A DNA stretch of 64,000 nucleotides, from assembly GCA_002633005.1 (NCBI GenBank), contig NMRA01000228.1, forward strand, positions 484,120-548,119, in the 5' to 3' direction. Numbering within the stretch: the stretch's first letter is position 1; each line of letters begins with the position of its first letter. Below, piece by piece: positions 1 through 64,000 of this stretch. The stretch comes from Phoronis australis (lineage: Eukaryota > Animalia > Phoronida). The position numbers and the translations under genes were made by a program. The notes below the pieces were generated by a model. That model was not told the origin of the DNA and did no database searches. It saw only the letters and a program-made list of their open reading frames with translations.

Positions 1-608
1 AATAAAATTGCCACTAGGGGGCACACTGGTAGTCGGATCCGTCCAAAAGTCAATTTCGTAAAGATACTGCGACTGAACGGTTTAGGAGATACAGCCATAG
101 GCGCAAAAATAAAACTGCCACTAGGAGGCGCCACAGTAGTCGAGATCGTCGGAAAATCATCGTCAACCGTCCTCTACATAGTAAGCATATACATGCCAAT
201 TTTCACAATCATCCTTTGAGCGGTTTGGTTGATAGAGAAAAGAGACTCGAAAACACTAAAAATGGCCACTAGGTGGCGCAAACTATGTCGAATCCACCTG
301 AAAACGGGAGGATACCGTCATCTCACTAATAGGTGCCTACATACCAAATTTCATGAAAATCCGTTCACGACTTTTGAAGATACAAAGGTAAGCGTAAAAA
401 ACTAAAATTGTCACTAGGGAGCACACCGGTAGTCGGATCCGTCCGAAAGTTCGCACATGCCGTCCCATTTATGAATGTAACATATGAACGTATGTCAAAG
501 GCTGGGAGTAATTATAGTCCTAGGTCAAAGGGTTTTGGAGATAAAGCAGCGGACGCCCGGAGATGACGGGATAATGCGTCCACATATAAATATGTGGGCG
601 CATAAAAA
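1..608 (-). mobile_element. HINE/DINE-1-like (Helentron-type) non-autonomous element, family 1, truncated by the window start
   Basis: Terminal GCGTCCACATATAAATATGTGGGCGCATAAAAA hairpin end and 400-bp internal period (motif at 11 recurs at 411). Nearly identical to 52179-52718. Confidence 0.8.
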
Positions 609-2570: not shown

Positions 2571-2621
2571 TCAGTTGTCGTCACCATCACGATCCTGATC
2601 CTGGTTATCTGATGTCCACAG
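2571..2621 (-). CDS. 14-3-3zeta: 14-3-3 distal terminal exon 5: [16 protein letters not shown]
   Basis: Acceptor CATTTCAG, LWTSD start, acidic tail, and TGA at 2573-2571. Confidence 0.93.
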   Translation of the reverse strand: MWTSDNQDQDRDGDDN

Positions 2622-5600
2622 CTGAAATGAACAAAAAAAAGTCATAAACACACGGTTGGCATCAACTCAACATTCAATTGGTGTATTAAACAATTTAGGC
2701 ATCTGTTTCTGATTAGGTATCAATGGTAAATATTCTCCAATTCGGGACACCTATAGTCCAGAAAAAATGATTTTTTTGTTCTGAAGATTGGGACATGGAC
2801 TATTTTGCTGTTCATTGTATTTCTCAAATTTCTGACACTGTGTTTTGTATCAACAGTCTTAAAATAATAGACTTTGCAACCCTTCAGATAAGTTGGATTT
2901 CACTCAGATAAAATTGCTCAGGCCAGTGGTATCCATCTTATCAGTTTTACTGTATATATCTGTTAAAGTTTTTGCTGTGACCTTGCAAAATGACGTCATG
3001 GTTGCTAAATTCGACTGACACCAGGAGATGCCTCACATGCCAACCACATATGAAATTTCCTTTTCAAGATATTGCAACATTTTGCAAGTCAAATTCATAA
3101 AATTTCTATTATGAACTTGAAAACAAGGATAAGGCCAAAAAATCGACTGGCCTGGAGTTACTTCACCTAAACCTCGGTATAAAATACTAACAAAATGAAA
3201 AGCTTCCTTCTTGACAAATCTAATTCGAACTCTTAAATTCCTCTTTACTGCCTTGTTTTCAAGGTCAAGGTTGCTACACTCCACTAGTTATGTTGGAGAT
3301 ATGCTAACTATACCTTGGAATAAAATAAAAAACAAGAGCAATGCGGAGCATTGAAATGCGCCCACGAGTGCATCGCAAATGGTGTGCTTTTAGGGTTATT
3401 TATTTGTATCATAAAAATGGCTCCTAGGTGGCACAAAAACGTACAATCCATCCAAAAAACGGGAACATGCCATATTTCATAAATATCTGTCAAGGAACTT
3501 CAGAGAAACAAAAAACAGGACAAAGTGAAATTGCCACAAGTGGGCACAGAATCCATTGGATCCGCCTGAAAGTAGTCATACTCTGTTGTTATCTTAATAC
3601 AGCTATGGGCGCGAAACGAAACAAAACAAAACAACTACTAGGAGGGGCCACAGTAGTCAGTCGCCATCATCAAACGTCCTCTTCACACTGAGAACATTTC
3701 AATTTTCAAAACCATCCCTAGAAGGATTTGGTTGACAGAGGGGTGGATGCCAAAAACCAGGGTTTGAGAACACCAAAAATGGCCACTATGTGGCGCAAAA
3801 TACCTCGATTCCATCCCAAAACAGGAGCAAAGCGTTAGGACAATCTGTTGAGGACCTTTGAAGATACAGAGGTAAAAAACCACTAAAATTGCCACTAGGG
3901 GGCACACCAGTGGTCAGATCCATCTGAAAGTCGTCGTTGTCCGTAGTCAACATCATAAATTAAGTAAAGATCTTGCAAACTGTTTAGGAAATACAGCCAT
4001 GAACGTAAAACAAAACTGCCAACAGGAGGCGTCACAGTAGTCGAAGTCGTCGAAAAAACCTTCGTCAGCCGTCCACTTCATAGTTAAAACATACATGCCC
4101 ATTTTCACAATTATCTTGAAAGCGGTTTGGTTGATAGACGAGTGGACGCCAAAAAAACAGACTGGAAAACAGTAAAAATGGCCACTAGGTGGCGCAAACA
4201 AGGTCGAATCCATCTGAAAATGGAGAGATAGCATCACATCATTAACAGATGCCTGTATGCCAAATTTTATGAAAATACGTTGAGGACCTTTGAAGATACA
4301 GGGGTAAACGTAAAAATAAAATTGCCACTATGTGGCACACCAGTAGTCAGACCTGTCCTAAAGTCGTCGTCCTGCATTATTAACATCATATAAATACACT
4401 TCCTAAATTTGATAAAGATCCTGCAAACGATTTAGGAGATACAGCCATAGGCGCAAAAAACAAAATTGCCACTAGGAGGCGCCACTGTAGTTGAAGTCGG
4501 AAAAGCATCGTCAGCTATCCACTTAATTTTCACAATCATCCTTTGAGCGGTTTGGTTGATGGAGGGACCGACGCCCAAAAACAGACTCGTAAACAACAAA
4601 AATGGCTACTAGGTGGCACAAAATACCTTGAATCCCTCCAAAAATGAAAGGATAGCGTCACCTCATTAATAGATGCCCATGTGCCAAATTTCATGAAAAT
4701 CGGTCAAGGACCTCTGAAGATACAGAGGCAAACGTAAAAAACTAAAATTGCCACTAGGGGGCACAGCGGTATATGGGTCGGTCGGAAACTCGTCGCCCTG
4801 TCGTCAACCCCATAGGAACACACTTGCCAAATTTCAATAAGATCCTACAGGGATTTAGGAGATACAGCCGCGGATGCCCTGACAGAGATGACAGCAATAT
4901 GCACCCACATATAAATAAGTGGGCGCATAAAAATCTAAAACTCCCTTCTGTAGACATTGTGGCAAACAAATTTTCCCATGTCAAAACTAGATTTTCTCTG
5001 TAATGATGTCAACATCACCAAAATCGACAGGCACCTGTGTTAACCACCTACATCTCAGTACAAAACAGAAACATCACTTAAAGCTCCATTTAGAAAAATC
5101 ATTTTCCCAACAGAAATGTACACGACTGCTCCCCCATGGCAAATTCCTTGGAGTTATTAAGATCTTTCTGGTTAGTGGTGGTGTGCACAAGCCAAGGACT
5201 CCATTGTCTTGCTCAGGCAGGTTACATAATGGAGGTTGGGACATAACACACAGTTGCAATGCCCATTATTTAAAATTCTCCAAGTATTTTTTGTTCACAC
5301 GCTACAGGTCGCATTTCCTATCCAATCAACATGAAACTTACAAACATTGAGTGCATTTTGAATTTGTCAAAGCCCATTGTTTTTGGCAGAAATCGGATTC
5401 AAGATAGCACTGTGTCATCCATTTTGCAAAACGTTATGCTCCTGCTCTGTGGGGGTGAGTTTCCCAATTTAGCTGATCGGGAACTCAGGTTACAACCATG
5501 TCGTTATCAGTTTGACAGTGATAGCAAAATACATGACAAAAAAATCCATGTATTCTCATCAGAAACAGATGTCACATTTCATGAACATCTATCAAGGAAT

Positions 5601-8600
5601 CCAGTGCCCGGTTGCATGAAACAGCCCAACAGAAACTCAACTTTGTTCTCTAAATTTTCAACACATTTGTGGAAGTTGTTAAGTCACTGAGGTTCTTGGA
5701 TGTTTAGTGATGACGGATTTGCCACTGATATGGTGAGATTTTGAGCCAAAAATACGAATAGAAATGCACAGTCACAACACATTTTCAAAAAATTTGCAGG
5801 TCATGGATTAGCTTCCAATTCAGGTAACCAGATAATTTTCAAAGAGCTTACTAATTTACAGCGCTTTGTAAATATGGTGTAATTATCATTGTTCTGTTTA
5901 ATTTTGACATTTTAAATGTCTGACTGGGTCCAAAACGTCACCCACCCACACATCCACCATTCATGCATAATAGTGACACTCTGCACAGACACAGGCAGAG
6001 AAACACCAGGTGGTTACTTCAAGTAAGATACAGGACACTAAGTACAATACAACATTCCCTTGTGGATGGACATTTTGTCAAAAAATCTGATGGTGAGAAA
6101 AAAATTAAAAATGTCTCTACCACACCAAAATCTAATTTTCTCTTAATTCAAAGCAAGAATTTCAAAAATAAATCTATCACTGGCAAGCTGGGTTCAAACC
6201 ATGCAAAATGGTTTAAAGAAAACGAGTGATAACCTACACAATTGAATAACACATTTACTTATTATAATCATGTATCTGCCATTTCTTTTATCCACTCTTC
6301 CACAAAATATTCTGTTTACTCTACGTTCCACGCATTTTTGACCGCAGAATCGCATTATTTGTCACCGTGACTTTATACCAAATGCAGACGTCATTTATGA
6401 ACCAAGCTATTCCAGTCACAGGCGCTTGAATTTATTACTTGGCGTCAAGTATGTTGGTCTGACGAGAATTTTTTTTTTGTTTGTTCGCCCTCTACAGGTC
6501 GCAATTTTGGTCCGATTTTCACGAAATTTGCACACAATGTGTAGATCGGGAACTGCTAGAACGCTATTGTTTTTGGTCATGATCGGATACAAAATGGCGG
6601 ACGTGGCGGCCATTTTGTATGTGATTTCACAGTCAAATACTCGTAGAGGCCGCATTTTTCGACCTACATGGCTGAAAATCGGTACGAATATACTAGAACG
6701 CATGTGCTACAATTGTGCAGAAAATCGTTGACTTCCGGTTAAAGATGGCGGAAATATTGGACGTGGCGCATGCGCACCCCGAAATAGGGCTAAAAACGTT
6801 TTCTCCTGTAGAGGGCGCAATTGCAAACCAATCACTTTCAAACTGGTCACGTGTTCGTTGAGTTTAATAAGCTTTTATAAAAAATTATTGAACCGGAAGT
6901 CACCTTCAAGATGGCGGCTGTGGGGCATGTTCACACGGTTTCAATCGCTCTGCTGTCGCATTTTTTATGGGAAGAGCAAATGACGTGAATTTTTGCATGT
7001 GGATTCCTTGAAGTATGGCCTTTCAAAAAGTCTGCGAGAGCGTATTTCTCAGACTTACCGTTTTCGAGTTATTTGACTTTGAATTTCAAAAAAAACCGGC
7101 AAATTTTCAATTTTCTCGAAAAATTTTTGGATTTTTGCCAAACTATCACATTAGATAGAGATTTGAACGGGCTTTCAGAGGATACTTTCCATTTTGCGCT
7201 ACGACGTCTACTTTTTGAATTATTCGAGATTTTCGGATACCGTTGTCCCTATGCAACGCGCAGGTGGCTGGCTTTCAGTTCACTTTGTTTTGGTTATGCC
7301 TAGTTGACCCAGACTGACCCAGCCAGCACTGTTCTACTGTAGACTGGACCGTCATGTTGCGCCATCTATTGTTCTTTATTGTAGTTCATTATATGCTCTC
7401 TATTTGATTTCTTCGCTAGTCACATGAATGTTATCGTGTTATTCATAATTGCCGCTTTGATCGTCATAGTTGTCGTCGTCCTCCCCATCGTCGTCTTTTC
7501 GATTAATTTCGCCAAGTTTCGCTCCTCCGAGCGCTCTTGTTTGTTCCTCGATTGCCGCTGATATCACTCACTACTAAGAAAACATGTTTCTTATATATGG
7601 TTACGAGTCATCGGCAAATTCGAGCGCCTGTGATCCGCAAGTACAATTTCCTTCCTCCAAAGCATAAAGAGCAGTTTCCGCTTTTCGAGTCGTCAGCAAC
7701 GCTGCAGTAAAATCAATTTGCCGCGATAATTTTATGGCAAATCCGATTTTTTCCGCGGAAATATAACGAAAATACGCGGAGGGAATAAAAGAAAAAAGCG
7801 AAAATCCACGTTTCCGCGGAAAATTCCATGCCTTGAAGAATATAACCAATAACCTGCGCCATCCTCAGTGGGTGGAATGCTTTACATTTGTTGATCAATT
7901 ATACAATTATAGTGAACTTCTTTACAACCCATTCACAGCCAAGTTCAGCGAACTACTCATTCACTGCCAAATGTGGCAAGTTGGCCACTACCTCAATCTT
8001 GACCTAGTTAATTCTAAATTGGATGGGAGATAGCTACAGTTTAACGAAACACCTGATCGCTTACTTGTCAAATTGTGTCTGATCCAAAAGTCTCTCTAAC
8101 TATTGACTGTTGAAGTTTTACCGACACAGATTCAAAATCATTCTGATTTGGAATCCAAGTTTGAAATCTCTGACATGAGACAACATTATGTACTAACGCA
8201 AACAGGGTATGTACATCAACCAATACCTGGCAAATACCTGTTTCATATTGTATGGCATCATAATTTTAAAATATCATGATACAATGTAAGGTGCATCCTA
8301 CCAAGATAACAATTTACCAGAATTTTACATTGCGCTATGTTTCTATGCAGCCTCAAAAATTAATGGGCACTTGGAAATGCAGTTTAAAAATGGCAGTGAT
8401 TGAGTTAAGCAAGAAAGAGAATGATCCAACGTACGGTCAAGTTATCTCTAAGCAGCTGCATTATGAGAGTGCTGTCTTTGTATGAGTCTTCTTGAAGGTT
8501 GTCCAAATCAGCAATAGCTTCGTCAAATGCCTACAACACACACAAGTTCATGTCGATAACAAGCTGAAACATACAGTCATACTCGCAACAACTGCATACA

Positions 8601-11600: not shown

Positions 11601-14600
11601 CTATTGGTAAAAACTTTTCAATTTGGTACAGATTATGGGGAAATGACATTCAGTGACTGCATCGATTGTCTTATTGTATGTTTTCAATTGTAGCTAGCTG
11701 GATAAGAATCTGCTATGCACAAGATTCGAGAATAAACAATTATCAGTGTATTTAAAAACAAATGGCAAACTGAAAAAGCACAGAAAGAAACAACATTGCG
11801 AGGGAGTCCATAATCAGGCATATCAGGTGCTGAATTTCTGAATTACGTTCAATTCTCTCAGGTTATTGCTGAAGGATTGCTTTTCACTTTGTCCAACGGT
11901 GAAATAGATGGTCAGGCGGTTGGTTTCAGTTGTTTTTTCTTGCCTGTAACAGAATAGAAATATTAGCAAATTGTAAAAGAAAAGACAAGACAAAACTACT
12001 TTTGTAAGGCAGAACATACTTGACATTTCATCTTCATGTTTATGTGTAGAAACTAATAACCTTTGTACCCAAGTCTTATTTAATATCTGAATTAAAATAT
12101 GTGAAACAGGCTAAAAGTGATTTAACAATGTGTATTTTTCATGACACTTAAAATGTGCTTCTGATCTCAACAAGTAAAATTCATTCTAGGTGTCAATTTT
12201 TTTCCAATGCAATGTTACGACATTTACTGAATTAAGGCTTATTCATGTTAATTCGATAACTGAGCTGGTGGTCCTGGGGGTGGGGTCCACGATAAAATAA
12301 GGAAACTCACTCATCTAGAGAATTTTATTGGAAACAGCATAGTTTTGAAGAGAAACTGCTGTGAAAAAGTCACTCTTGACTTCTGTGCATCACGTACCAT
12401 ACACCTCTTATTTTGGGAGCACTCCCACCCAGGACAATATGAATATGTGCTGCTAGCCTACCCGGCATCGGGTGAGTTTCCAAAAAGAAACACTTAGTTC
12501 CACTCAATAAAACTGTTATTCAGTGGGGTAACTGGTGGGGATAACATCACCGAACGATGTTGATAGAAACTGATTGCTAAAAACTTACCAAGTAATGTTG
12601 TGTAGTCTCCGAATGGAACTGCATAGTCACTCATAGACATAGAGCACACAAGGGGCTTCAGCATCCACACACTTTTTGTCAGTTAGTTGACCCTGTTGAC
12701 CGCAGTTGTCCACGAATATAGAAACCTTAGGTCTTTTACGAATTTGTGGCCACCTGTCGAAGACTTGCACCAGGGAAATTAGCAGTAATAAGGCTTAGCG
12801 CGACGACGTATTTTGATAAAAATTCCATCTTTTACCGTTATTTACATGCAGACAGCCACGCATGCGCAATTCAATCACCACTAGTACAGCAGCGACACCG
12901 CGAGGAGAATTCTCCGAATAGCCCCATTAGCCATAAGGCAGCCGGATCAATCCTGCCAGCACTGTATAAAAAATTTTAAGCATCAGTGTAATGAGGGCAC
13001 ACTCTCAAAATTATCCTTGGAATGTAATAAATCATTCTTAGATAGCCTTCTGTGCTGCTCTTGATGTCTTTACATCTTTTGGTGCCCCCCCCCCCCAACC
13101 CAAACACGTGTTTTTTCATCAAATGCAAGAGCAACTATCTAAGACTAAAATACAATGCAAGCAATTTCGGATCACAGCAAATGACATCTGCAGACTTTCC
13201 AATGGAAGGATTATGGACTAAACACAAAGCAACAATTGATAGGCCAACAGAGTAGGAAAGGTAAAAATTCACATCACTTTACAGTAACTGATGTATTGTC
13301 ACCCACGTTTATACATAAAGGTTTTAATACTTACTTTTTTAGCCAACTGACAAGCATGTTCCGGAGAGTTGAGAATTTCATAAAAAAATACGGAGAAGTT
13401 CAGTGCCAGCCCTAGACGGATGGGGTGAGTGGTGAACATGTGTAATTGTGCCAGATCTTGTGCACTTTCATAGGCCTTCTTTGATTTCTCAATTATTTCT
13501 AAAAGGAAAGTGCAAAATATGAACTTCATTATACAAGTAAAGCACACAATCATTTCTACAAATTATTGGGTGCAGGTTCCTGGGCATCTAACTGGAGAGC
13601 ACAAATAATACAAAGAAGAATCATTTTTAATGCACACATTCAACTCAATAACAATAATTCTTGATCTCACTCCGAAGCACTCGATAGATCTTTCCAGAAG
13701 ACAGCATATTATAAAAGAACAAGAATACAAACAAGACAGAGCATTGATTTCTACCAACCATGTGCAGCGCACACAGCACAAATAAAGAGAATGATCATTA
13801 CTTTAAACATGACGAATATAGGAACCAATACCATTAAAATCAAAATAGCCTCAAGAGGGTGCAAAACAATTCAGCACTGCTCTCCTCAGTAGGGACACAG
13901 CTGCCACCTTTATTATGACTCTTGATGCAGGTTGGAAGATAGCAATGCAGGCGACAAATAGACATAAAAATAATGAAATCAACAGCAGAAGAATGGAACA
14001 AGACGATCAAGGCAGCGACACCATATGTAACCATGACAGCTTCTCAGGAACACACCTGCCAAATTTCAATAAGATCTTGCAGCAGGCGCCATACTCGAGA
14101 AAGACATGACAACAATATACACATAAAAAATAAGTGGTCGCATAAAAATGATAAGTTTGTTTTGCAAAACAATCTTATCCAATCCAATACTTTATGTTGC
14201 TGACAGCATTCAATGTACTTGCCAATTGGCTCCGTTCTTGGTGGACTGTCCCACTATTTGATTTTTTCGTCATCCCACCACGCCATCAAAATGTCTTGCT
14301 TTTGACACACGGCGAAACTGACACATTATCATATACTATTGTAATTTCCCAAGTGATACAGCCCTATTTCCTCGCTGGACTAAAAAGAAAAAACGTGTCA
14401 TTTCAATTTTTATGGCACAAGTTATCCATTTGACTAAAGAACATAAAAACACCGTCGGGCACGGTTGGGTGTTACATTTCCCATTTGACAAAAAATGCCG
14501 TTGGGATGTTTTTGTATGTTGCGGCGAACATTTCACCCCTGTGTTTTGGCTTAGACCCAGCTGTTCTGCTTTTCATCTCGAAGTCCCGTTATTCAATCTA

Positions 14601-17600: not shown

Positions 17601-20600
17601 AGTCGAGGGGGTCGTAGGGGTTTAGAACAATTCCTTATTATCTCAACAGATGTTTTCTTTGGTAAACTACATACTGTACTCGTCTGGGTTACGGCCCATG
17701 TTCGGCTTACCACAAACCCCCAATTTTTCATGATTGATACTTCCTTAAAAGTGTCTGTGCTTCTGTGAACATTCGTCGCACAAAATTAAGATTCTAAAAC
17801 ATGTGCAACTTGCTTACCTTTCTGTGACAATCGATCAGTTTTAGTGGAACCAGGACCTTGCCTTAATATGGCAGTAAAATACCTGTATTCTCATGCCCTT
17901 TACTGAAGGAGATGTAATTGTTGGATTTGGCTCATGCGTGGAACATGTGTCTGCATGTACTGATCTTTGAGACAGCGCTTGTCGAATGTATTTCATTTGC
18001 TGTGAAAGAACCACCAAACGATTCTTGACAGAAATTTCACGTCCGTGGCCTACCTTTCTGTGATTCCCTGTGACAGTATATGAAACACAACCAGCCTGAG
18101 CATTGATTGAAATAAGAAGACATGGTCCATTACGACAAGCCGTGTCACTGTTCCCCATCTTGGTTAAACGCATGTTTTTAAAGACTTTCACTCCTGACAC
18201 CAAAATGGAAGCGCCCAACCAAAAGCAATAGCGCAAAAAATCAACTTCGCATTAAGCGCAAAGCGAATATTCTGTCCACATCCACATGGTCAAAACTTTT
18301 GATTTGCCAGATGACTTTTTGCATGATGTTTTTTGCTTCAATATTTTGCCAGCAGACAGAGAACCAAGTGGCGTTGGCTTTGATCTCAAAAAAGAAAATA
18401 ATGTATATAAAATGTTACATTGTTCAAAGTATTCAGTAAGAAGGGCTGTCAATCATTAGCACATGTTTGGTTCAAAGTATTCAGTACCGCTGAAGAAGAC
18501 CTGTCAATCACTAGCAGGTGCTTGGTTGCCAAAGTGTCCAGGGGAAACAAAAATCTTTACACAATCAAGTGCTTCCTTAGAAATACACCCTGAACTAGCA
18601 GTCTTGTTTGATCAGTCTTTTCTCTCAAGAAACTTGCCCTACTGAACGCACGCCTACCTGTAGGAACACCTTAGTTCTAAGAGATGACGAGCAGCGACCG
18701 AGGTACATAAAAACCCAATCACGCTAGGGATCACGACACCACTGTATCGTCTGCGCTATTCCATTTCTGGCCGTTGAAGTCCATTACTTCAATACTCCGA
18801 TCTATATTTTAACTGATATGCTTGAAGTCCGAAGTCAGTGCAGCTCTGTGATGGTAAAATCGGTCCTCTGTGCAGTAAGCAACAACTCACGACTTTTCAA
18901 AAATTTCAATTTTAACCACCCATGCTCGGCTTACCACCCACCCCGTTGTCTTAGATTCCCAATTTAAGCACCCTGGGCAGTAACACAGACGAGTACGGTA
19001 GATCAGATATAACTAATGTACACAATTGTTTGGGAAAGTATCACATATTACACCTTCAATTTACTTTTAGAAAGGAATACTACCAAATCGAAAAATCTAT
19101 TGATGTCGGAAACCATGAATATGAAAATCTAGTTTAAGATGGCCGCCTTGTCTCTTCTATTTTTCTGATTCTTAGCTAATGTTACATTTAGTATCTGGTC
19201 TCTAAGTGTGATTGTGTGCGTGAGAGTGTAAAATAATCACTCTCTTATATATACATAAGTGTCAATAAAAATTACAAAGAAAAATTCTTGTAATAGAGCC
19301 AGGTCAAGTTGACAGTACAAGGAATGTTGTGTTTACCTCCTATTTCTTACTTTGCAGCTAAAAGTGCCAAAATATGATCGTGGTGTTATAGCAAACATCT
19401 AAGCCCTCACACTTAGATGTTCTTCTATTCCACTCAAACACTGCAATCATTTGGATCTCTTGGTTTCATGACATGAACACATCCACTACCACAAGAAACT
19501 GTAGGAACACCACATTTATCCACCTTCACTCTTATCAGGCTTCTTTTGAGAGTCAGCATGTGTGAATAATTGGCTGATAAGCCACCTATGGAACTACTTT
19601 TGGCTGAATGGATGACCAGGCCATAAAATGATAATTAGTCAAGACCAGTTAACTAATGCAACACAGAATAATGTGGTAGCATCACCTAGCCTTAGTGGAA
19701 AGCTGTATACTGTACTGGCTCTAATAAATGCTTTCATTTCACGGGGAGGGGACGCTTATTGTAGCCTAAGGCAGTTAAAACCCGCTTTCCGAAATGGGTA
19801 AAATCGGAAGTTAGGATTCATCGAATTTAAGCTCTGTGACGTATTTGAAGCCTATGACAGTCTTTCCACAAAATTGTGGTGCATTGCTATAAAGCTCCGT
19901 TGTTAAATTACAATCATTTTTCAAAAAATTGTTCTGAAATCCTAGGGCGAAAACTTGCCAACTGATACGTCGCTGAATCGCGAACGTCAATAGGAAAACT
20001 TGAATTTTTGAATAAAAATACAGTTTCGACTCAACAAATTACCTGAAATCTTCCTTATGTTTTACAATTTTTAAAGTTCATGTGAAGTCCAGATTAATTG
20101 CGATTAAGTCCAACTCTCCGCTACATCGTACCCCACAACACGAGAAAAATCTCTGGATGAACACACATGTTGTTGTCACGTGAAGTTTGTTTTGAAGTTC
20201 GTCTGCGTATGAGAGTGAGTGCGCGTGCGGGTCATCGACGACAGACTTTTTTGTTACAAAAGGAAGATTATGCAAGAAAATGGCATTTGAGAGAGAGAGA
20301 GAGAGGTTGTTTATTGCACTTGGAGCTAAGCTCATTTGTACATATTACATTGCAACATTTGGTATAGGTGGCAATTTCACGTCCGGGTATTCAATACATA
20401 TATACATATTTACACGTTACAATGTTAGAGTTTCCTGTCTAATACCATAAGCCTTTAATATAAATAAGGATAGTCTTTTCAAAAGATTTCCAGAGTTTGT
20501 TTTGAATAAGTATTTGACGTTTTCGATGTCTGTATGCTGTCGGGATATTTCTGGTAAAAAATTCTTTCTAATGTCGTTAAATACGGGGCAGTTAAGTAAT

Positions 20601-23600
20601 AAGTGTATTTCGTCTTCAATTTCTGAACGGTTGCAAATTTCGCAAAGTCTATCTTCCTTTGGAATGTCATGGTGCCTACCAGTTTCTATTTTCAGTTGGT
20701 GTCCAGAGCACCTGAATTTGGCTAAAATTCTACGTAGAGTTGGTGGTAGACTGTAAAGATATTCTTCACAAGATAAATCTGTTTTGATAATAGAGTAAAA
20801 TGAGCACTTGCTAGAGCTCTGCACTGATGTCCTCCATTCTTGGGCACCACAATCCAACAATCTTTGCTTAAATTCTGATATAAATAAATCAAAGTTACCC
20901 GGTCCACTTATCCATACCTCCCCAAACCCGTATCTGAACAAAATATCTTTAACTGCACTGGCCCAATTTGCTCGTCCTTTTTCACAGTCTTCCCGCAGCA
21001 TCCTGTAACTTTTCTTTGGGTATCTGGGGTTATTCATCTGTAGAATTTTGGTCCAGTAGATTATTGGTCTGCACAAGTATTTCACAGATAATAAATGCCT
21101 GCCGCATTCTCCTCTGGCCATAACGTTACTTGTTTTCTTTGGGACACCAGCAACCCATTTACAGAAATCATTGTGAACACTTTCTATGTCTTTCGAATAT
21201 ACTGTACCCCATATCTCAGCACCATATAACAATATAGGAGCTACCATACTATCAAACAATTTAAAACATACATGCGGGGATTTACAATTCACTTAAGTTA
21301 AACATGCTTTTAACATGTTCATTGCTTTTCTAGCTTGTAAAGCTGATATTCTACAATTTTCATTCCATTTTAATCTGCAAGAAAATGTCACACCAAGGTA
21401 CTTGTAATAAGATTTCGTTTCTACCTATTTCTTATTGTAGAACCACCGTTCTTGGCATTTACTAGATTGTTTTTCACTAAAACAGCTGCAATGTGCAAGG
21501 TGAGTGCCGGTTAACTCACAGATTTTGTGTGCACAGGCCGACGGTCGTTAGCTCTACCGTGGAGTAAAACATTAATAGTCCAAGGCTCGATCTACATGTT
21601 GTGGATGAGGTGACTAAGTGAACTACCCAGGCTGTGTGAAATTTCTGGGTCTAATGGAGACCCTGACGCAGTGGTCAGCCAGCTTGCTGTATCAAGACTA
21701 TAGTCAAAATCCAAATTCATTTTGTCGTGTTCCTGTCAATAATAATGGCATGCTAAATTTTCTTAATGTTTGTAATTCAGGAACATAACATCACGTGTTT
21801 TGTACACATACGCGCACGCCGCAGATCACATCTCGGAAATTTCCGATTTGACGGATGACAATGAATGAGCACAATGAAATTAAACGTCGTTTTATAGCTT
21901 GTAAGATTCATAATAAACGTATTTTGAATATTGCGATGCATGTGTTCCAAAATCTAAATAACTTGGGTCCTACATTTTTGTATTTGTTTGCGCCGAATGA
22001 AAGTAATCGTGAGTGTTGCTGTGTTGCAAAATCTCTTATCCTCGGCCGATTTGAAAAATTCAAAGTTGTACTCGTATTTGTTTTCGCTCCTTTCAAATAT
22101 TACAGTAAAAATTACGTAAAACTCTCTCCATAAAAAGTACAGTCTGCTACGCTAGATTGTAATCAGCTGATCATATCCGTATGAGTGAAGCCAATTATCC
22201 TCGCTCGTGACTCGATGAATAGAGCAGCTTGGCGGCATCCCTTTGATCGTGAGCCGAGCGCGACTCAGCCAAGGTGAATAAATATGGTCTAGTTCAATCT
22301 GCCAACCCCCCCCATTTACCCTGATAGGCGGGGTTTGGGCCAATCTTATTTAGTGGGAATGTTTATAGCATGTTTTGCTATGCCCATCATGTGTCCATGA
22401 CTTTTTCTCATAGTTTGCACGATTTAATTTAGAGTCCAACAGTTTGTGTGTACCCTTAGAATCTTAAAACATTTGCATCTATATCAAAACAATAACTCAT
22501 ACATGCTATAAACATTCCCACTAAATAAGATTGGTCCTAACCCCGCTTGTCAAGGTAAACGGTGGGGTTTGGAAAATTGAACTAGACCGCATTTATCCAC
22601 CTTGGTCGAGTCGCGCTCGGCTCACGATCAAAGGGATGCCGCCAAGCTGCTCTATTATCGAGTCACGAGCGAGGATAATTGGCTTCGCTCATGCGGATAT
22701 GATCAGTCGGCAAGTTTTCGCCGTGATGAGCACAATTTTTTGAAAAATTATCGTAATTTAACAACGGAAGTTGATAGCAATGCACAACAATTTTGTAGAA
22801 AGACTGTCATAGGCTACAAATACGTCACAGAGCGTAAATTTGATGAATCCTAGCTTCCGATTTTACCCGTTTGGGAAACTGGGTTTCAACTGCCGTAGGC
22901 TACAATAAGTGTCCCCTCCCTGTGAGATGAATTTTTCTAAGCATTTATTAGAGCCAATACAGTATACAGCTTTCCACTAAGGCTAGGTGATGCTACCACA
23001 TTATTCTTTGTTGCATTAGTCAACTGGTCTTGACTAATTATCATTTTATGGCCTGGTCATCCATTCAGTCAAAAGTAGTTCCAGAGGTGGCTAATCAGCC
23101 AATTATTCACGCATGCTGACTCACAATAGAAGCCTGATAAGAGTGATGGTGGATAAATGTGGTGTTCCTACAGTTTCTTGTGGTAGTGGATGCGTTCATG
23201 ACATGTAATTCTATGATTTACTAGAAACATTTATTTAATTTAGAGTCCCGCTTCTTGTTGCATTTACAGGGCCATTGTCATTTTCACAACCACAACATAC
23301 CTTATTGGATTATGGGATAAACTTTTTGAAGTTATTAGCTTTGACCAGAGCTATAAAACCACAAAATCCAGTTTTGTGACTTTATTACAGAATGCCAATT
23401 CTAGACATTGTCTGCCAGAATTTGCGTGTTGCTTTACCAGTGAAATGTGCTTAAGATGTTCCATCTACTACATTGACTTAATTAGGAGAACACTTTTATT
23501 GTTTGAGATGACTTAATTAGGAGAACAGCTTTATTGTCTGAGATTAAGAGGTTATGGTGCTTGATAAACTGGATCACAAGGGCAAACGACCAGTTTCATA

Positions 23601-26600
23601 AGTATGTACATTGTTTACAATGGGACATGCCACATTTCAAATACTTGCCATGCATTACACTGCAATCCAATACTCCATGCTCATGGAGGGTGGCACCAAT
23701 GCAAAATGTTAAGCAGGGCAATTTGGCCACTTGGCCTATTGTTCATTCTAACAAAGGTTCTTTATGTAGAAGTGTGATAATTAGCCAATATGTGGAATAT
23801 GCCTATGGATTATCCTACCATTTAGCTGAGCAGTGGTATGCAGTAAAGCATTTTTGAAGATGGGATGAAAACCACAAATTTTGATGTATGAATCAATTTT
23901 ATCTTTTCACAAAAATGTAAATCAAGAATCAAAGGAAAAGGCATGCAAAATTGCAAAATTTTAAAACAGTAAAAATACAAAGCTCAGTGTTAATGCTTAA
24001 GGCATTCAACTCTACTGGTAGTATTATGAGAATTACATTAACAAAACCTGACTAGAGTGATCAATACATACATCTGATCAATAGTGCCGTTCCTACACAA
24101 AAATTGCCTGAAATAATCCCAAAGTTAGCGTCAACTTTCATTGGAAACATTTTTGAACTGGAATAAAAATTTACCAGGATTCTGAGTTTCACCAAACAAC
24201 ACAAGCTAAATAGTCGGGAAAATTTATTTGTGAGGAAACTTTGTTATTCAATTAAAATTCCAAGACAGACTGCTCTGGACTAATGACATTACTGCAGACT
24301 ACCTCACAATATTAATTCAGTTAACTAAAACTCATGTTATCAGTATCACAGGTGCCTTTTCAAAGCCTGACATGGGCAACAGAACTTGCTGGGATTCGTA
24401 ATTCTGTGGGGACACAACTGATTGTAGGAAACAATTCATGTAACAAGATTCCTGTGAAATTTCTCGTATTCTGAAACACAAGGGAACCCTACTAATGGGA
24501 CCGCTTACTTGACCACAAAGTGTACTTTTGCTGATGATTCCTCTAAACTAGGGCATGTGTAATTGCAGGAACTCAGGACAGATTTATTGAGCACATAATA
24601 GAATGAAAAGACATCACAGGACAAGGTGAAAACAAAATTTGATAACGTTCTTCAACAAAAAAATCTTGACTTTAAAGACTGATCTCCAAAAAACAATCAG
24701 GTCTTGGAATGACCAATGACAAAAAACGCGGAAACTTTTACGGCCCAAAACATGCGCGCTATTCAGCCTTGAAATAGTCGATGTGCACCTTTCGCCGACA
24801 AAATTCAGTAGGATTAAAAAAAAAAAGTTACCACCATCAGTAGCATGCGTCTGCGTCTATTTATCTCGTCCATCCACTCCTCCACTCCCACCCCCACACA
24901 TTTTTGGCTGTAGAGCCGTAGTATTTGTCACCGCGGTTTACACTCACATGAGACGCCATTAAAAATCCCACCATGCTATCCCAGATGCCCCGGCAATGTT
25001 GACAATTTACGTTCCTCCGAAACATAAAGAGCAACTTCCACTTTTCGAAGTGAACATCGTCGGCAACGCCGCGGTAAGAAAGGAATTTGCCGCGGAAATT
25101 TTATATCAAATCCGATTTTTTTACGCGGAAATATAATAAAATGCGCGGACAGAACACTTGAAAAAAGCGGAAATCAGCGTTTCCGCGGAAAATTTCAAGC
25201 CCTGAATAATGGCACACGGTTGAGAAAAAAAATTCAAGGCTTAAATGACCAGTTGTTAATAAATACTAATTAATGCATCCATTCACAACTTTTCATTTTG
25301 AGTATTCTTTTAACTTATTGATACAACATTGAACTTGTAAAGCATGTAGCCTGATCAGACAGTCACGATTATTGTACTTGTATGCTCAATGCAATGACAA
25401 TATACAGACATATATGATTTAGCATCAGAAAAAACAAGTTGAACAGCAACATTGGAGAGACACATCTAGTTTTCCAGTATAAGTCCCTCCAGATGGTGTC
25501 CATTTCTCTCCACCTCAAACTACAATTTCAGGTCATAATATGCTTTAGCTGTAAGTAGTCTAGGTGAAAGCACACTATTTCTCTTGTATTTTCATGATGC
25601 TTTTTCAGCATCACCACCATCTTCATCCTCAAAGTTTGATGAAGTCCAAAGCTGAAACATGCATAGAAAGCTTTCAGATAAACTGATTAGCTTAAAAAAA
25701 AGAATTACGGTAAGCAAATGGAAAACATAATGGTCAATTTATAACATCATTGTTTCTTCATGGATAAAAAAATCTGATTTGAAAAAATATACATTATAGC
25801 TCACTAAATAAAAAATAATTGCAGGTGGTCTGGTACACGTTGTTAACACTGTGCTGGTGTTGGGGATGGTAGATTATGAACTACTAGCTGCTACCAGTAG
25901 TTCAGGTCGTTGGAAAATCGTCAGCTCTCCTATTCACATTAGGGACATACATGCCAATTTTCACAATTATCCGTAGAGTGGTTTGGTTGACAGAGAGGCA
26001 GAGGCCAAAAAAAACCTCAAAAACAGTAAAAACAGCAACGTGGAGCTTTGAAATGTGCCTGCGAATGCATCGCAAATGGTGTGCTTTTAGGGTTGTTTAT
26101 TTGTATCATCAAAATGGCCACTAGATGGCGCAAAATACATCAAATCCATCTGAAAACGAAAGGACAGCGTCACCTCATTAATAGATGCATACTGTATTCG
26201 CCATAATAACCGCCCAAGGTGCTTAGAAAAGTTCATTTCAGGGGGGCGCTTATTATAACCCAAGGCCGTTGAAACCCGGTGAAACCGGGTGAAATCGGAA
26301 GCTAAGATTCATCATATTTACGCTCTGTGACGTATCTGTAATCTATGAAAAACTTTCTACAAAACCGTGGTGCATTGCTATCAAACTTTGCTGCTAAATT
26401 ACGACCATTTTACAGAAAATTGTGCTGAAATCACAGGGTGAAAAGTCGCCGACTGCCTGCCTCGCAATCGTCGATATAAAGACTTGAATGCTTGAATAAA
26501 AATACAGTTTCGACTCAAGCAAATTACCTGAAATCCACCTTAAGTTTCCAAGTAGCGTCCCTAAGATTTTTAAGTACCCATGGAGTCGGGATCACGGCAG

Positions 26601-29600
26601 GTTTAAGTACAAATGTGTGCTACATCGTGCCATCTACATGTATGATCGGCAACANNNNNNNNNNNNNNNNNNNNNNNNNNNNNNNNNNNNNNNNNNNNNN
26701 NNNNNNNNNNNNNNNNNNNNNNNNNNNNNNNNNNNNNNNNNNNNNNNNNNNNNNNNNNNNNNNNNNNNNNNNNNNNNNNNNNNNNNNNNNNNNNNNNNNN
26801 NNNNNNNNNNNNNNNNNNNNNNNNNNNNNNNNNNNNNNNNNNNNNNNNNNNNNNNNNNNNNNNNNNNNNNNNNNNNNNNNNNNNNNNNNNNNNNNNNNNN
26901 NNNNNNNNNNNNNNNNNNNNNNNNNNNNNNNNNNNNNNNNNNNNNNNNNNNNNNNNNNNNNNNNNNNNNNNNNNNNNNNNNNNNNNNNNNNNNNNNNNNN
27001 NNNNNNNNNNNNNNNNNNNNNNNNNNNNNNNNNNNNNNNNNNNNNNNNNNNNNNNNNNNNNNNNNNNNNNNNNNNNNNNNNNNNNNNNNNNNNNNNNNNN
27101 NNNNNNNNNNNNNNNNNNNNNNNNNNNNNNNNNNNNNNNNNNNNNNNNNNNNNNNNNNNNNNNNNNNNNNNNNNNNNNNNNNNNNNNNNNNNNNNNNNNN
27201 NNNNNNNNNNNNNNNNNNNNNNNNNNNNNNNNNNNNNNNNNNNNNNNNNNNNNNNNNNNNNNNNNNNNNNNNNNNNNNNNNNNNNNNNNNNNNNNNNNNN
27301 NNNNNNNNNNNNNNNNNNNNNNNNNNNNNNNNNNNNNNNNNNNNNNNNNNNNNNNNNNNNNNNNNNNNNNNNNNNNNNNNNNNNNNNNNNNNTTTTATTT
27401 CTGCTGCCGTCCCCCCCCTCCCACACGGATTTTACTGGAACAGCCCTTAATCAAACAATTCATCTTAAAAATAACGCAAACATTTTTTATAGTATTAGAA
27501 ACTGTCAGAAATTAGTGCCAATATTCATTTCTTGCCGATGCTATGCTACCTGTTTCATGAATGGATAGTTCCCGACATGTCTTTGATGACAGGTTCCTGT
27601 ATGTAGCCCGTGCTTCCTGGCCACGTGCTTTTAACACTGGCCAAGCTTTTTATTAGTCTTCGATTTGCGGTTTTCACGAGTAGGCCTACCAAGAAATTTT
27701 GGATTCCTGTTGAAAGCGGGAAATATCTACAAAACAATCCCGTAGACAAGTACACTACTTCTGTTCTGAAAGGCCAGACCATAGGTCCTCGCAATATCAG
27801 CAGAACTTTTGTGTTCGTTTTGAGGCATGGCGGAACTTTGAAGTGTATAGTCACGGCTAAATACCGACATAGTGGCGAGGCTCGTGGTCTACAAATTGTG
27901 CGCACAATGTTTTTTTTCAGGACTGTAAGATATTATTGATAAATTGAAGACGTTACTGTAGAATTTTAGGACTGTAGGTATGGCATTTTTTCCGCGTACA
28001 CGTTCATGGACTGGGCGCTTATTTTAGCAAAGTCTGAAAATGCGTGGGGGGCGCTTATAGGGGCATGGGCGGTTGTTACAGCGAATACGGTATGTGCCAT
28101 AAAAATTAACTTTAGGCAGTGATTTTGGTTCAAAATAAGAGAAGAATTACCAAATGACTCAACAACTGGCAAAACACTACAGAGTGCAATTTTTGGCTAA
28201 CTAATAAGCTAGGACACAAAACGATGTGAAAGAATTTTGATGAACTACAGAACAAATTTCAAATTCAACTTGATCTGAATAAAGCATATTTTTCATACAA
28301 AATACAGAGCTTTCCATACTTCTGTACTTTCAATGGAAATCTGTAAAAGATATGGACAATCCATACTAGCAGACATCTCTGTTTTCAATGAATTAAGCAA
28401 TAAGTATATACTTACACTTAGGTTGTCCCGAAGAAGTTGCATTATCAAGGTGCTATCTTTAAACGACACGTCTTCCATATCTCCAACGTTATTCAGAGCT
28501 TGTAGGGCATCATCAAACGCCTAAGGATATTAAAACAAAGGGAAATTAACAATCTGTAGATAGTTTGGATGAGCATTAAAGTTAACAAAGATGGTGCAAT
28601 CTCCACTGCCCCAATGATTTCTGGAGTGTCAAAGTCAGAGAATGGAATAATTCGACAAAAGGCTTGGAGCGAAGGTTTTTCACTTAGTCATAAGCTGAGT
28701 TAACAGGAAATCTTCCGTGCAGAATATTTGCTAGACATTGTTAGAGCATTACCAGATCATTTGGGAAAGTGTAAAACAAAGTCCCATAGTGAAAGAATAT
28801 ACAACCAGGAACGAAAAGGAAACCACGCTGATTGCAACACAAGGTTTTACTGGTTGGGGCATATGGTGCATATGTTTGCTTAGTATGGAAGTCACATTTA
28901 AACCAGTAATAGAAACTGTGGACTTCCGAAGTAATGTTCTGCCTCTTAAAGAGATCCAATTATAAACTTAAATCCTTCATAATTAAAAACTTTAAAAAAT
29001 TGCCACAAGAGGCAGTTGATTTGTGGTGTTCTGAGAGTCGTCCACATTGACAGCTAAGATTTTATTACAGAGTAATAACATTGTCGAAGTCCCAAATTTT
29101 CCCCAATATCATGGATGTGCTGGTGTGTCTCTAGAATATACTATAATGATATTGAGTAATATCGAAACGTCGATATGAAACACAGCATCTTGTTTTTATT
29201 ATTTAATGTTGTACTCGCCATCTGACCAAGAACTGATATATATTATCTACATTCTCAATTGTAGTACATAACAAAAGCAATCGGACAGAATAGTATTTCC
29301 TCTTCAGTAGCCAAAATGACTGACAATAAGAACTGATGTGGCATAATTCTAAATCCAGAATGATTTAGTCACAGTACTATCTTGTGGATTCCCCTTCATT
29401 CTTGGTCATGAGGGAAAACTATTCTGATGACAAATCAAGGGCATTTTGTTTCAATACGTGTATTGAATGTTTGGGTTGTATGTCAGCTCTCAATTCATCA
29501 TGTATAAGATATCCAAATAAAACATGCCTTCAACCTTAAATGTATTTAAATAAGAAAAGACAACTAGCTGGAGCAGCTTACGCCTGTGATACCAGTTACT

Positions 29601-32600
29601 TATTTTGAAGGTTTTATCCACAAGGCTACGACAACCATTTGATATGCTGCGACTACTGTGTTGTTTCGCTATCACCAACCCAGTTAAAATGATAGTAAAA
29701 AAGCTAAACAGAAATGCTTACCTTCTTTGCAAAGTCACAAGCCTCCTTGGTTTGGTCCATTATTTCGAACAAGAACACAGAATAATTGAGTGCGAGTCCA
29801 AGGCGAATTGGGTGACAAGCTACCAGTTTTTCCTCTGCTATTCCTTGCGATTCCTTGTACACCTCACTGGCCTTCTCTTGTATGCCTAAAAAGTAGGAAA
29901 TGATGTGCAGGGTATACGACCAACAATTTGAAGGCTATGAGCTGACAGCACAGTACCAGTATCAAGTGAAGACAACGATAAATGACTGAAAACACCTTAG
30001 GGTCATGTAGAAACTCATCAAAAAATCTATGTATTTTAAGAAAATATCAACAAAACTATAGATTTAAACTCAGTAAAATTACATATTTTTTGAAAGCAGC
30101 AAGCCTTCTGAGGAATTTTGATTCATTCTAACTTTTCACCAATCTGGCGGGAAAGCATGGTACATTGATAGTAACACAATGATACCAATAAAATGTAAAT
30201 TTCATTCAAAATAAATGTTCACGATGAAATCTCAAACACGCTGTTACAGTATTCTAAATTCTTATTTATGGAACTATTTAGAGTTGTTTCAGGAACATTG
30301 TGAGTCCTATTTTTGACGGCCTCTCATGCAAAAGTGGGAAATATTAAAAACAATTTGGAAAACAATGCAAGAAGCTTATCATCTGAAAGTTTCATATGAA
30401 TCCAAACAGCCATTTCTGAGATATCATGTTCTGCACTGAGCCAAATTTGGACATTTTCTAGGATCCTACATAACCTTAAATTGAGTTGTACTGCATACAG
30501 ATAGGTTATTGATGGATTAGTAAGACAAAGAACTATGGTGAATACAATAACAGCACATAAAAGTGTTTTAGCATTAGGCAAGGACAACAAATGTTAAAAT
30601 GTAGTTTGCTTGAAAGGAAAAAAATTAGCAAAACATGGACACACTATTACATTGCCACTTTAGCAGTTCTAAAAGTGAAACAGTCATTTGGTGGTTAACT
30701 GCTACCAAAATTTCAGCACAAGAGTCAATATCACATGCTCCCCAGGTCCAGGATTAGTGACACAGAGAAAAGGAAAGCATTACTCAATAAGCATAACACT
30801 GCAGGTTATGATAAACATCAAATGTCCTAAGTGACTGAACAGAAAATTGTAGAGGTAATATTGTTATCATTCACCGAGTTCAGGAAAACAAATCGTTCAA
30901 GGATCTTGAGCATTTCTGATGTTTTTTTTAAGCACTCAAACTCAGATCAAGTTTTTTGAATAGTTCTTTATGAAACATCAGACAGAAGCCCTATTGAGAA
31001 ATGCGCCAGCATCTGACAAGAGCAATACAGGGGGAATTGATATCGGCCTACCATGTGCATCACAGAACGAAAATACACCGGAGGCTCATTGTTTCAAACA
31101 TTTCCACACACAAGGGTAACACTACTGAACTTAAAATTGATTCTAAGGGTTGCAATGCATCATCCTAAAACTGGCAAATGCAAACCTGATAGATATTGAG
31201 ATTGCCCCCAATTACTAAAATTACCGATAGAGGGAACTGCAGCGGTTGCATCCATCCATTGGTCAACGCCACTTATGCTCACCCTATTCATACGTGCACC
31301 CAGAGGGACTCGGGGGGGGGCTAAAATGAGCCCCCCATTTGGCGAAGTGCGCAAAAAGGTCCGCCCCTGAGAAACAAAATGTCCGAAAAACTAAAAAACA
31401 GACAAAAGTCTGCTAAAAAGGCAGGAACTACCAAAATTTGGCAAAAATTAATCTCATTCTGGTTTCCATCATGACAAATATAAGAAAAAAATCTAACGAT
31501 TTACTTAACAGGAACAGTACAACAGCCAAATTCCAAGACGACCATCTAAAAGAACTTGATCGAAAGTGAGGCAGGCACAAAAAACTGCCATTAGGAGGGA
31601 TAGCAGCAGTCAAATTCATCTGAAAATCACCCAGTCACTAGAAAATGTGTCAAATTTCATGATTATCCTTCACCGTCAAATTTGGTAGAAAATGAAGCAG
31701 ATGTGAAACACTAAAATAGCAACTAGGGGGCATAGCGGTATTGGGATGTATCCAAACATCGAAGTCAGTCAAATTCTTGTCAATTAAATCTCAAAATATC
31801 TGGGAGGCAGTTGTATGCCATAAATGCTACAATTGCCATATGGGGGCAGAGCTGTAGTCGACACAGCTAATATCGAAAAACCTCAACTTGCCTTATACAC
31901 ATAAATGAAAACGTGCATAGTGACTAGATTTCCAAGCAGGGTTGTCCCTGAGCAAAAATTGACGTTTTCTTGTGTTTTAAACCAATATTGTGCCCCGTTA
32001 AGCTGGCTCTAAAACAAAAAGCCAATTAGACCTTTTACTATCCTCAAATTGATCTCATAACATTCCTTAATGCAATAGGATTTTCTTTATATGAGGGTAA
32101 AATCTCACTAATTTAGAACAGGATACAGTCAACAAATAGATATATGTACCGTAAACGTTCGGGTTAACGCTCTGGGCGGTTAAATTGGCAAANNNNNNNN
32201 NNNNNNNNNNNNNNNNNNNNNNTAAACAGACATGGGCATGGGCACTTAAACGTGAATTTTCAAGAAATCGCGGGTGGGCCGTTAACCGAACATGGGCACT
32301 TATTACGACAGACAACCGTAGTTGGAACGCGTGGCACATTTCAGAGCTTTATCGCCTCGTCGCCAAATGACGGTAAAAATGTCACAACAGCGGATGATCC
32401 CAACAAAGGTTCTGTTAATCATTTCAGTTAAATTTACAAAATTACTGAGTAATAGCTCATGTCGTCCTGCGGACTTGTTAGACCTGTACCTGTAGAGCGC
32501 AGACGTCCAGTGACTATGCAGTGCTGCATAGGTCACAGCAGAGTAATGTGGGAGCTGTCATATTCTGAGTTAGAGAGCAGTTCTAAGTTATATGTAATTA

Positions 32601-59793: not shown

Positions 59794-60081
59794 ATGGAAG
59801 ATATTCTTGTAACCAGAGCAAAATTCGCAGAACAGACTGAACGTTACAATGACATGTCGAAATTTATGAGAGAGTTGGTCAACAAGAAACCCGACTTGAG
59901 CGAAGATGGAAGGAATTTGCTTTCTGTCGCATATAAAAATGTTGTAGGAAGTAAACGGTCTGCTTGGAGAATTTTACAAGCGGCTGGCAGTAAGGAACAC
60001 GAGCCACCCAAGAAGGAAGTTCTCGAGGAATATACCAAAGCGGTCGAGGCAGAATTGGTTAAAGTCTGTGAAGAAATATTG
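59794..60081 (+). CDS. 14-3-3 gene B (divergent paralog) main first coding exon (MEDILVTRAKFAEQTERYNDM...ELVKVCEEIL), 96 codons. Later exons are not in the window
   Basis: [13 protein letters not shown] signature. Donor TTG|GTAGGG lies at the same homologous phase-0 position as gene A exon 1. About 47% aa identity to gene A exon 1 by hand alignment. Confidence 0.93.
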
Positions 60082-63581: not shown

Positions 63582-64000
63582 ATATATTACATGATACTAG
63601 TAAACATCGCTTTTATCAGGGCTTCATTTGGTGACTTGTAGGTTAATTGCCTGAATGCAATCTCAGATTTTGGATGACTACCTGGTAAAAATCCCAGGTC
63701 ATCTCAAAGTTGCCACACATACACCCAAGTATGCTCTCAAAATACTACAAGAAGTAAACTGATGGATGTAAGAACCGTTGGCAAAAATGGAATGTCCCAA
63801 GTATGAGTCGTGCATCGGTAACATGTGCCGACCTTCTATTTGCTCTTTCGGAAGATACTGTAGTCTGCGCGATATATTTTGGGTCCGACAGGTGGGTATT
63901 GGTTGTTGTGGAATGCGCGGGACACTTCCGTTCAACTTAAGTTAGGTACAGGTGATCTCGTAGCAAAAAGCTCCCCGGTTTTTCTCTTAAGGTACGCTTT

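What the first reader, a model, noticed from the sequence alone, without database searches (positions are those of the whole stretch)
2571..29885. One 14-3-3 gene with two alternative three-exon C-terminal halves
Seen: a single exon 1 and exon 2 are followed by two complete exon 3-4-5 sets. Both sets have canonical splice sites, matching phases, no stops and their own stop codon. I found no exon 1 or 2 between the sets, and 13498-25592 has no gap, so the distal set can only be reached by skipping the whole proximal set. The two exon 3 copies are only about 48% identical in protein (26/54 by hand) and their adjacent introns are unalike, yet the groove motifs [10 protein letters not shown] and [14 protein letters not shown] are kept in both. 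Established: insect 14-3-3zeta has single mutually exclusive exons. Inference: here the entire helix 6-9, tail and 3'UTR module is swapped through coupled splice-acceptor and polyadenylation choice, giving a common dimerisation half with two client-binding halves. I do not know of a description of this for 14-3-3.
Basis: partly seen in the sequence, partly recalled or inferred. Interest (0 to 1): 0.88.

Follow-up and report, generated by a model that had tools for sequence, protein, structure and literature searches.

The report
14-3-3 gene with two back halves
An animal 14-3-3 signalling-adaptor gene splices one shared front half onto either of two long-diverged, three-exon back halves, a conserved major one and a highly divergent minor one that is broken by a stop codon in one of the samples; this layout is known from other genes but was not found described for 14-3-3.

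Summary
Confirmed by RNA. Exons 1-2 (minus strand) are followed by two intact exon 3-4-5 sets. Reads join exon 2 to the proximal set (6, 9 and 3 reads in three runs) and to the distal set (162 and 138 reads in two runs; not among the rows shown for the third). The proximal form is about 4-6% of output. The sets are old duplicates: synonymous sites are saturated, yet the proximal set keeps 37 of 43 near-invariant columns and ranks as the most divergent C-half of 138 compared. Corrections: the phosphate pocket (K49, R56, R127, Y128) lies in the shared half, and both sets keep the groove asparagines, so the swap changes outer surface, helix 8-9 loop and tail. Against a vital role: one run carries a premature stop in proximal exon 4 in 13 of 13 reads, and 0 of 5 coding variants are synonymous. 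Poly(A) sites and hybrid junctions were not observed. Tandem multi-exon 3' cassettes are a known class (GNAO1, Drosophila CG42235); this scan noted the layout in other genes, not in 14-3-3. New member of a known kind.

The parts
54887..55189 (-). shared coding exon 1 (helices 1-4; dimer interface, K49 and R56 equivalents)
   Evidence: spliced to exon 2 in 186 (X2) and 174 (X3) reads as loose ends equal to its last 30 nt
44345..44486 (-). shared exon 2 (helix 5; R127 and Y128 equivalents); its donor is the branch point
   Evidence: depth 227-272, 222-247, 55-59 in X2, X3, X4
29722..29885 (-). proximal exon 3 (helices 6-7, start of 8), divergent
   Evidence: joint from exon 2 in 6, 9, 3 reads; depth 14-15; Pfam 14-3-3
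28416..28520 (-). proximal exon 4 (helices 8-9, 3-aa insertion in the loop); nonsense variant at 28502 in run X4
   Evidence: joint from proximal exon 3 in 3, 15, 13 reads; 28502 variant 13 of 13 reads in X4, 0 of 6 and 0 of 20 in X2, X3
25592..25651 (-). proximal exon 5, coding part to TGA; 3' UTR transcribed to at least 25359
   Evidence: read depth 2-8 at 25432-25486 and an X1 contig at 25359-25517; the exon 4-5 joint was not among the rows shown
13335..13498 (-). distal exon 3, conserved; major splice partner of exon 2
   Evidence: loose ends at 44345 equal to its first 30 nt in 162 (X2) and 138 (X3) reads, agreement 1
8435..8530 (-). distal exon 4, conserved
   Evidence: no reads laid here
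2571..2621 (-). distal exon 5, coding part to TGA; AATAAA at 2305
   Evidence: no reads laid here
36797..36876 (-). cryptic donor at 36797 in intron 2 spliced to proximal exon 3; the start at 36876 is only a candidate acceptor (80 nt, would shift the frame)
   Evidence: 5 reads in X4, 0 in X2 and X3

Best explanation
One zeta-type 14-3-3 gene splices its exon 2 either to a distal, conserved exon 3-5 set (the major mRNA) or to a proximal, strongly diverged exon 3-5 set (about 4-6% of output), which likely arose by an old tandem duplication of the gene's 3' half and is likely dispensable today. Shown: both junctions from exon 2, the proximal exon 3-4 junction, the strand, the ratio in two runs, the divergence pattern and the variants. 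Inferred: use of the proximal acceptor is coupled to cleavage behind proximal exon 5 (no AATAAA nearer than 24588, only variant hexamers at 25319-25297, which would favour read-through to the distal set); the two proteins share the dimer interface and phosphate pocket and so would form mixed dimers; the minor form would bind phosphopeptides but differ in secondary contacts (helix 8-9 loop, loss of the S184-P185 equivalent, tail). Selection kept the fold for a long time, but a stop codon in all reads of one sample suggests it is relaxed now, at least in some animals.
For: Junction reads: 6/9/3 to proximal, 162/138 to distal, all on the minus strand, GT..AG ends. An independent study's contig (X1, depth 25) carries proximal exon 3 behind about 30 upstream letters, as a de Bruijn fork at a shared exon would give (inference). 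Age and constraint: pS 0.95 (saturated), dN 0.34, 30 of 47 identical residues use different codons; proximal keeps 37 of 43 columns conserved at >=95% but 11 of 54 columns below 80% (Fisher p 6e-11). Dispensability: Q210stop in 13 of 13 X4 reads (p 2e-4 if heterozygous with equal expression), 0 of 5 coding variants synonymous, none in exon 2.
Against: No 3' end, hybrid junction or proximal exon 4-5 joint was displayed (18 of 103 loose-end rows shown). The four missense variants lie at variable columns and five variants are few; 0 of 5 synonymous fits neutrality but is not proof. The stop is seen in RNA of one sample without DNA. Three of four runs are from one study and their tissues are unknown, so a tissue where the proximal form dominates is not excluded. 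No orthologue of the proximal set was found (best 69% identity), so conservation across species is untested.
Confidence: 0.65

Rival explanations
1. The proximal set is a fully functional, tissue- or stage-restricted isoform under continuing selection; X4 is a rare null, an inbred animal or a separate lineage.
For: Intact frame and splice sites despite saturated synonymous sites; groove residues kept. Proximal depth stays at 14-15 while exon 2 depth falls fourfold in X4, so the ratio varies between samples.
Against: 13 of 13 reads with the stop, 0 of 5 synonymous variants, and 5 of 8 upstream joints in X4 come from a cryptic donor.
Confidence: 0.22
2. The proximal set is the 3' half of the neighbouring divergent paralogue (plus-strand exon 1 at 59794-60081), moved into intron 2 by inversions or transposition and captured by exon 2.
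For: That exon 1 and the proximal set are similarly divergent (45/101 to exon 1; 26/54 and 21/35 to the distal exons). No exon 2 for it lies in the remaining 3.9 kb of the window.
Against: Intron 1 of the main gene is 10.4 kb, so the rest of the paralogue may simply lie beyond the window; tandem full-length 14-3-3 copies are common in animal gene models (P0005-P0007, P0010-P0012). Two rearrangements are needed against one duplication. No joint or fork pointing to another exon 2 was seen.
Confidence: 0.1
3. Assembly artefact: two separate genes or haplotypes joined across gaps, with a hidden exon 1-2.
For: Five N runs, one inside proximal intron 4 and one between exon 2 and the proximal set.
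Against: Spliced reads join the same exon 2 to both sets across the gaps; low minus-strand intronic depth runs through 28-29 of 30 bins; the sets are far too diverged for alleles and the proximal set has its own heterozygous site.
Confidence: 0.02

Closest known systems
Tandem-duplicated multi-exon 3' cassettes: human GNAO1 (last two coding exons swapped), NECTIN2, ZFP64 (PMC8373072, passages); Drosophila CG42235 and PGRP-LC 3' variable regions (PMC6191721, passages)
   Same: Shared 5' exons; homologous multi-exon 3' sets, each with its own stop and UTR; one donor choosing between acceptors, described as coupled with alternative poly(A) use.
   Different: Different gene family; the swap covers four of nine helices of one compact domain; 20:1 bias; one set polymorphic for a stop. 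No RNA pairing was shown here.
Drosophila 14-3-3zeta (leonardo): cluster of 3 mutually exclusive internal exons, three isoforms (PMC6071210 and PMC3795638, passages)
   Same: Same family, isoforms made from duplicated exons. Tandem copies of the exon-3 equivalent also appear in arthropod-type database fragments (P0191, named as an ostracod; P0179, P0183-P0186 unnamed).
   Different: There one internal exon is swapped, near-identical between copies, with a shared C-terminus and docking-site RNA pairing; here three exons, stop and UTR are swapped and the copies are about half identical.
Gene model OWF44887.1, '14-3-3 protein epsilon', Mizuhopecten yessoensis (P0182)
   Same: Two C-terminal halves in tandem (70/109 identical), each starting at the same motif in helix 5, without a normal N-terminus: possibly a parallel case.
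   Different: Epsilon type, different boundary, an automatic model; it may be two mis-annotated tandem genes. Not tested.

Membership tests
14-3-3 proteins (PF00244) | Pfam match of the exons in order along the profile | tested here: met
   7 of 7 exon translations match PF00244; proximal exon 4 alone scores 26.2 bits, under the 33.2 whole-protein cut-off
14-3-3 proteins (PF00244) | Phosphate pocket K49, R56, R127, Y128 and backbone-binding N173, N224 (zeta numbering) | tested here: met
   Residue list from PMC9523730; shared half keeps 57 of 57 columns conserved at >=80%; N173 and N224 equivalents are in both sets
14-3-3 proteins (PF00244) | Dimerises and binds phosphopeptides (proximal form) | not testable with these tools
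   No fold or binding job was run on the spliced protein
Tandem-duplicated alternative 3' cassettes | Homologous exon sets in tandem with matching phases and own stops | tested here: met
Tandem-duplicated alternative 3' cassettes | One upstream donor spliced to each set | tested here: met
Tandem-duplicated alternative 3' cassettes | Separate poly(A) site behind each set | tested here: inconclusive
Tandem-duplicated alternative 3' cassettes | Sets used as whole units, no hybrids | tested here: inconclusive
   Proximal 3-4 joint seen; hybrids would be loose ends, and 85 of 103 such rows were not shown
Docking-site/selector mutually exclusive exons (insect 14-3-3zeta type) | Single internal exon swapped, common downstream exons | tested here: not met
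   Each set has its own terminal exon and stop
Docking-site/selector mutually exclusive exons (insect 14-3-3zeta type) | Conserved competing RNA pairings | tested here: inconclusive
   Best duplexes -30.9 and -25.4 kcal/mol; 3 of 25 and 11 of 25 random intron windows do as well; no related genomes to test conservation

The most novel reading that the evidence does not exclude
A single 14-3-3 gene makes a second, functional, tissue-restricted subunit with the same dimer interface and phosphate pocket but a rebuilt helix 6-9 surface, giving asymmetric mixed dimers with different secondary client contacts; whole-half swapping has arisen more than once in animal 14-3-3 genes (cf. the scallop epsilon model), and natural null animals exist to test it.
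Probability: 0.2. Interest if true: 0.68.

Novelty: new member of a known kind. Interest (0 to 1): 0.45.

Why it matters
14-3-3 proteins are among the most conserved signalling hubs, and how isoforms gain client specificity is open. This locus is a natural chimera experiment: identical N-terminal half, two C-terminal halves, one as conserved as any 14-3-3 and one more diverged than all 136 homologues compared. It isolates the contribution of helices 6-9, the helix 8-9 loop and the tail. A sample with an apparent null allele makes function testable and may show an old alternative cassette being lost. The splicing architecture itself is known.

Tried and rejected
No whole genome is held, so the region beyond the window, including the rest of the plus-strand paralogue, could not be read. 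The first read lay at 90% likeness was crowded by repeats (15 of 386 joints shown, none exonic); the second at 98% was used for counts. Three protein searches with single exons and one library-wide search returned no protein of this organism and no orthologue of the proximal set. Among 124 of 178 fetched proteins that could be split in halves, no pair had an identical N-half with a diverged C-half. Competing RNA pairing: no signal above random intron controls; only two short inverted arms (45-50 nt, 78-80%) flank the proximal set. TAA read as Gln was considered for the stop variant and rejected: 19 of 19 Gln codons in the exons are CAA/CAG. RNA editing is unlikely because a second change of another kind travels with it in 12 of 12 reads, but needs DNA. 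Uncollapsed haplotypes rejected. Look-ups of earlier findings by place and by sequence were empty. Paper searches for a 14-3-3 with alternative multi-exon C-halves (listings only) found none; subscription journals are largely missing from that library. No supplements were read. No structure or complex was predicted.

Full report
Observation. A six-frame motif scan and direct reading place eight 14-3-3 exons on the minus strand exactly as reported. All have AG/GT ends and matching phases; exon 1-2 plus either set gives an open frame of 257 (proximal) or 251 aa (distal), each ending in TGA. The exon 3 copies are 26/54 identical, the exon 4 copies 21/35 with a 3-residue insertion, the exon 5 copies 10/21. 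tblastn at E<=5 finds no other exon 1 or 2 between or near the sets; its only extra hit is a second, divergent exon 1 on the plus strand at 59794-60081 (45/101), head to head with the gene. The window has five N runs, one of 30 between exon 2 and the proximal set and one of 738 inside proximal intron 4, so a misjoin had to be excluded with reads.

RNA test. One contig set (X1, study P1) and three raw RNA runs (X2-X4, study P2) were listed; about 18-19% of each raw run was read. At 98% likeness on 28300-44600, the joint exon 2 to proximal exon 3 appears in 6, 9 and 3 reads, and proximal exon 3 to 4 in 3, 15 and 13 reads, with GT..AG ends, all on the strand expected for a minus-strand RNA. Loose ends at 44345 in 162 (X2) and 138 (X3) reads, agreement 1, equal the first 30 nt of distal exon 3, and loose ends at the other side of exon 2 (186, 174) equal the end of exon 1. 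For X4 the distal loose end was not among the 6 rows shown (lowest shown 43 reads; exon 2 depth is only 55-59 there). The proximal share is 6 of 168 (3.6%, interval 1.3-7.6) and 9 of 147 (6.1%, 2.8-11.3); joints and loose ends have different detection limits, but depths agree (14-15 against 222-272). In X1 a 398-nt contig of depth 25 holds proximal exon 3 at letters 32-195, the pattern of a fork at the end of a shared exon (inference, its other pieces were not shown).

Age and selection. Between the sets pS is 0.95 (saturated) and dN 0.34; the introns share only repeats. Against 136 full-length homologues (136 of 178 fetched passed the length and motif filter), the distal half keeps 51 of 51 columns conserved at >=80%. 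The proximal half keeps 37 of 43 columns at >=95%, 5 of 8 at 80-95% and 11 of 54 below that, and ranks lowest of 138 in identity to the majority residue (Fisher p 6e-11). This is long purifying selection on the fold with fast change elsewhere. The homologue set came from searches with these exons and is not an even sample.

Variants tell against present constraint. Five coding variants lie in proximal exons 3-4: G163R and V221L (X1 contig), S155N (7 of 14 and 8 of 15 reads in X2, X3), E219K (12 of 12 in X4) and Q210stop (13 of 13 in X4; 0 of 6 and 0 of 20 in X2, X3). None is synonymous; exon 2 has no variant above 3 reads in over 200. The missense changes are at variable columns. The stop removes most of helix 8 and all of helix 9 and lies 84 nt before the last junction. 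X4 also uses a cryptic donor at 36797 in 5 of its 8 upstream joints; with the nearest candidate acceptor this would shift the frame. No DNA of the same animal was available.

How it works. Shown: one donor, two acceptors 14.5 and 30.8 kb downstream, the far one preferred about 20:1. Inferred: choosing the near acceptor defines exon 3p-4p-5p and ends the transcript behind exon 5p; otherwise polymerase runs on and the whole set is removed as intron. The distal UTR has AATAAA 266 nt after the stop; the proximal one has only variants (25319, 25297) before an AATAAA 1 kb away, which would fit the bias. A scan for docking-site pairing gave nothing above controls. At protein level the groove is formed by helices 3, 5, 7 and 9, the phosphate is held by K49, R56, R127 and Y128, the backbone by N173 and N224, and the helix 8-9 loop makes secondary contacts such as with AANAT (PMC9523730, passages). 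With offsets from solved structures, the first four residues are in the shared exons and both asparagines are in both sets. The proximal set departs at nine conserved columns, among them the equivalents of T163, Y179 and Y211, adds three residues to the loop and loses the S184-P185 pair (zeta residue letters and the role of S184 as a kinase site are recalled). So the swap would change secondary specificity and regulation more than the core binding site.

Comparison. [quoted passage not shown] In 14-3-3 the described case is the three-exon internal cluster of Drosophila 14-3-3zeta (PMC6071210, PMC3795638, passages). Seven searches listed no 14-3-3 with swapped multi-exon halves; the library lacks most subscription journals. 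A scallop epsilon gene model with two tandem C-halves is an untested lead for a parallel case. Earlier notes of this scan describe the same layout in other genes and genomes, none in 14-3-3.

Verdict. The finding is real and RNA-confirmed. It is a new member of a known architecture in a family where it was not found described. Its interest depends on whether the minor form still works; the old constraint says it did, the stop allele says it may no longer be needed. Interest 0.45.

Noticed in passing
window 59794-60081 (+): Exon 1 of a second, divergent 14-3-3 gene, head to head with the main gene (45/101 identical, GT donor at 60082, PF00244 match); its exon 2 is not in the window.
   Followed up: partly
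window 36797 (-): Cryptic donor in intron 2 spliced to proximal exon 3 in 5 reads of X4 only; no reading frame; poison exon or alternative start.
   Followed up: partly
window 21292-20420 (-): 291-codon open frame without a Pfam match that resembles the C-terminal part of a non-LTR retroelement protein (recalled resemblance), between the arms of a 511-nt inverted repeat (19464-19966 and 22702-23208, 90%).
   Followed up: no
window 3330-4940, 40234-42110, 52179-52720, 61864-63588: Copies of a dispersed repeat family with an internal unit of about 440 nt; matched by hundreds of RNA reads at 90-95% likeness from other loci.
   Followed up: no
window 43939-43915 with 30441-30406 and 13895-13871 (-): One 25-nt intron 2 stretch gave the best duplex with the regions upstream of both acceptors (-30.9, -25.4 kcal/mol), but it is G-rich and random intron windows reach similar values.
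   Followed up: yes
P0182 (OWF44887.1): Scallop 14-3-3 epsilon model with two tandem C-terminal halves, 70/109 identical; possible parallel case.
   Followed up: partly
P0179, P0183-P0186, P0191: Database fragments with two tandem copies of the exon-3 equivalent read through an intron, consistent with the arthropod mutually exclusive exon.
   Followed up: partly
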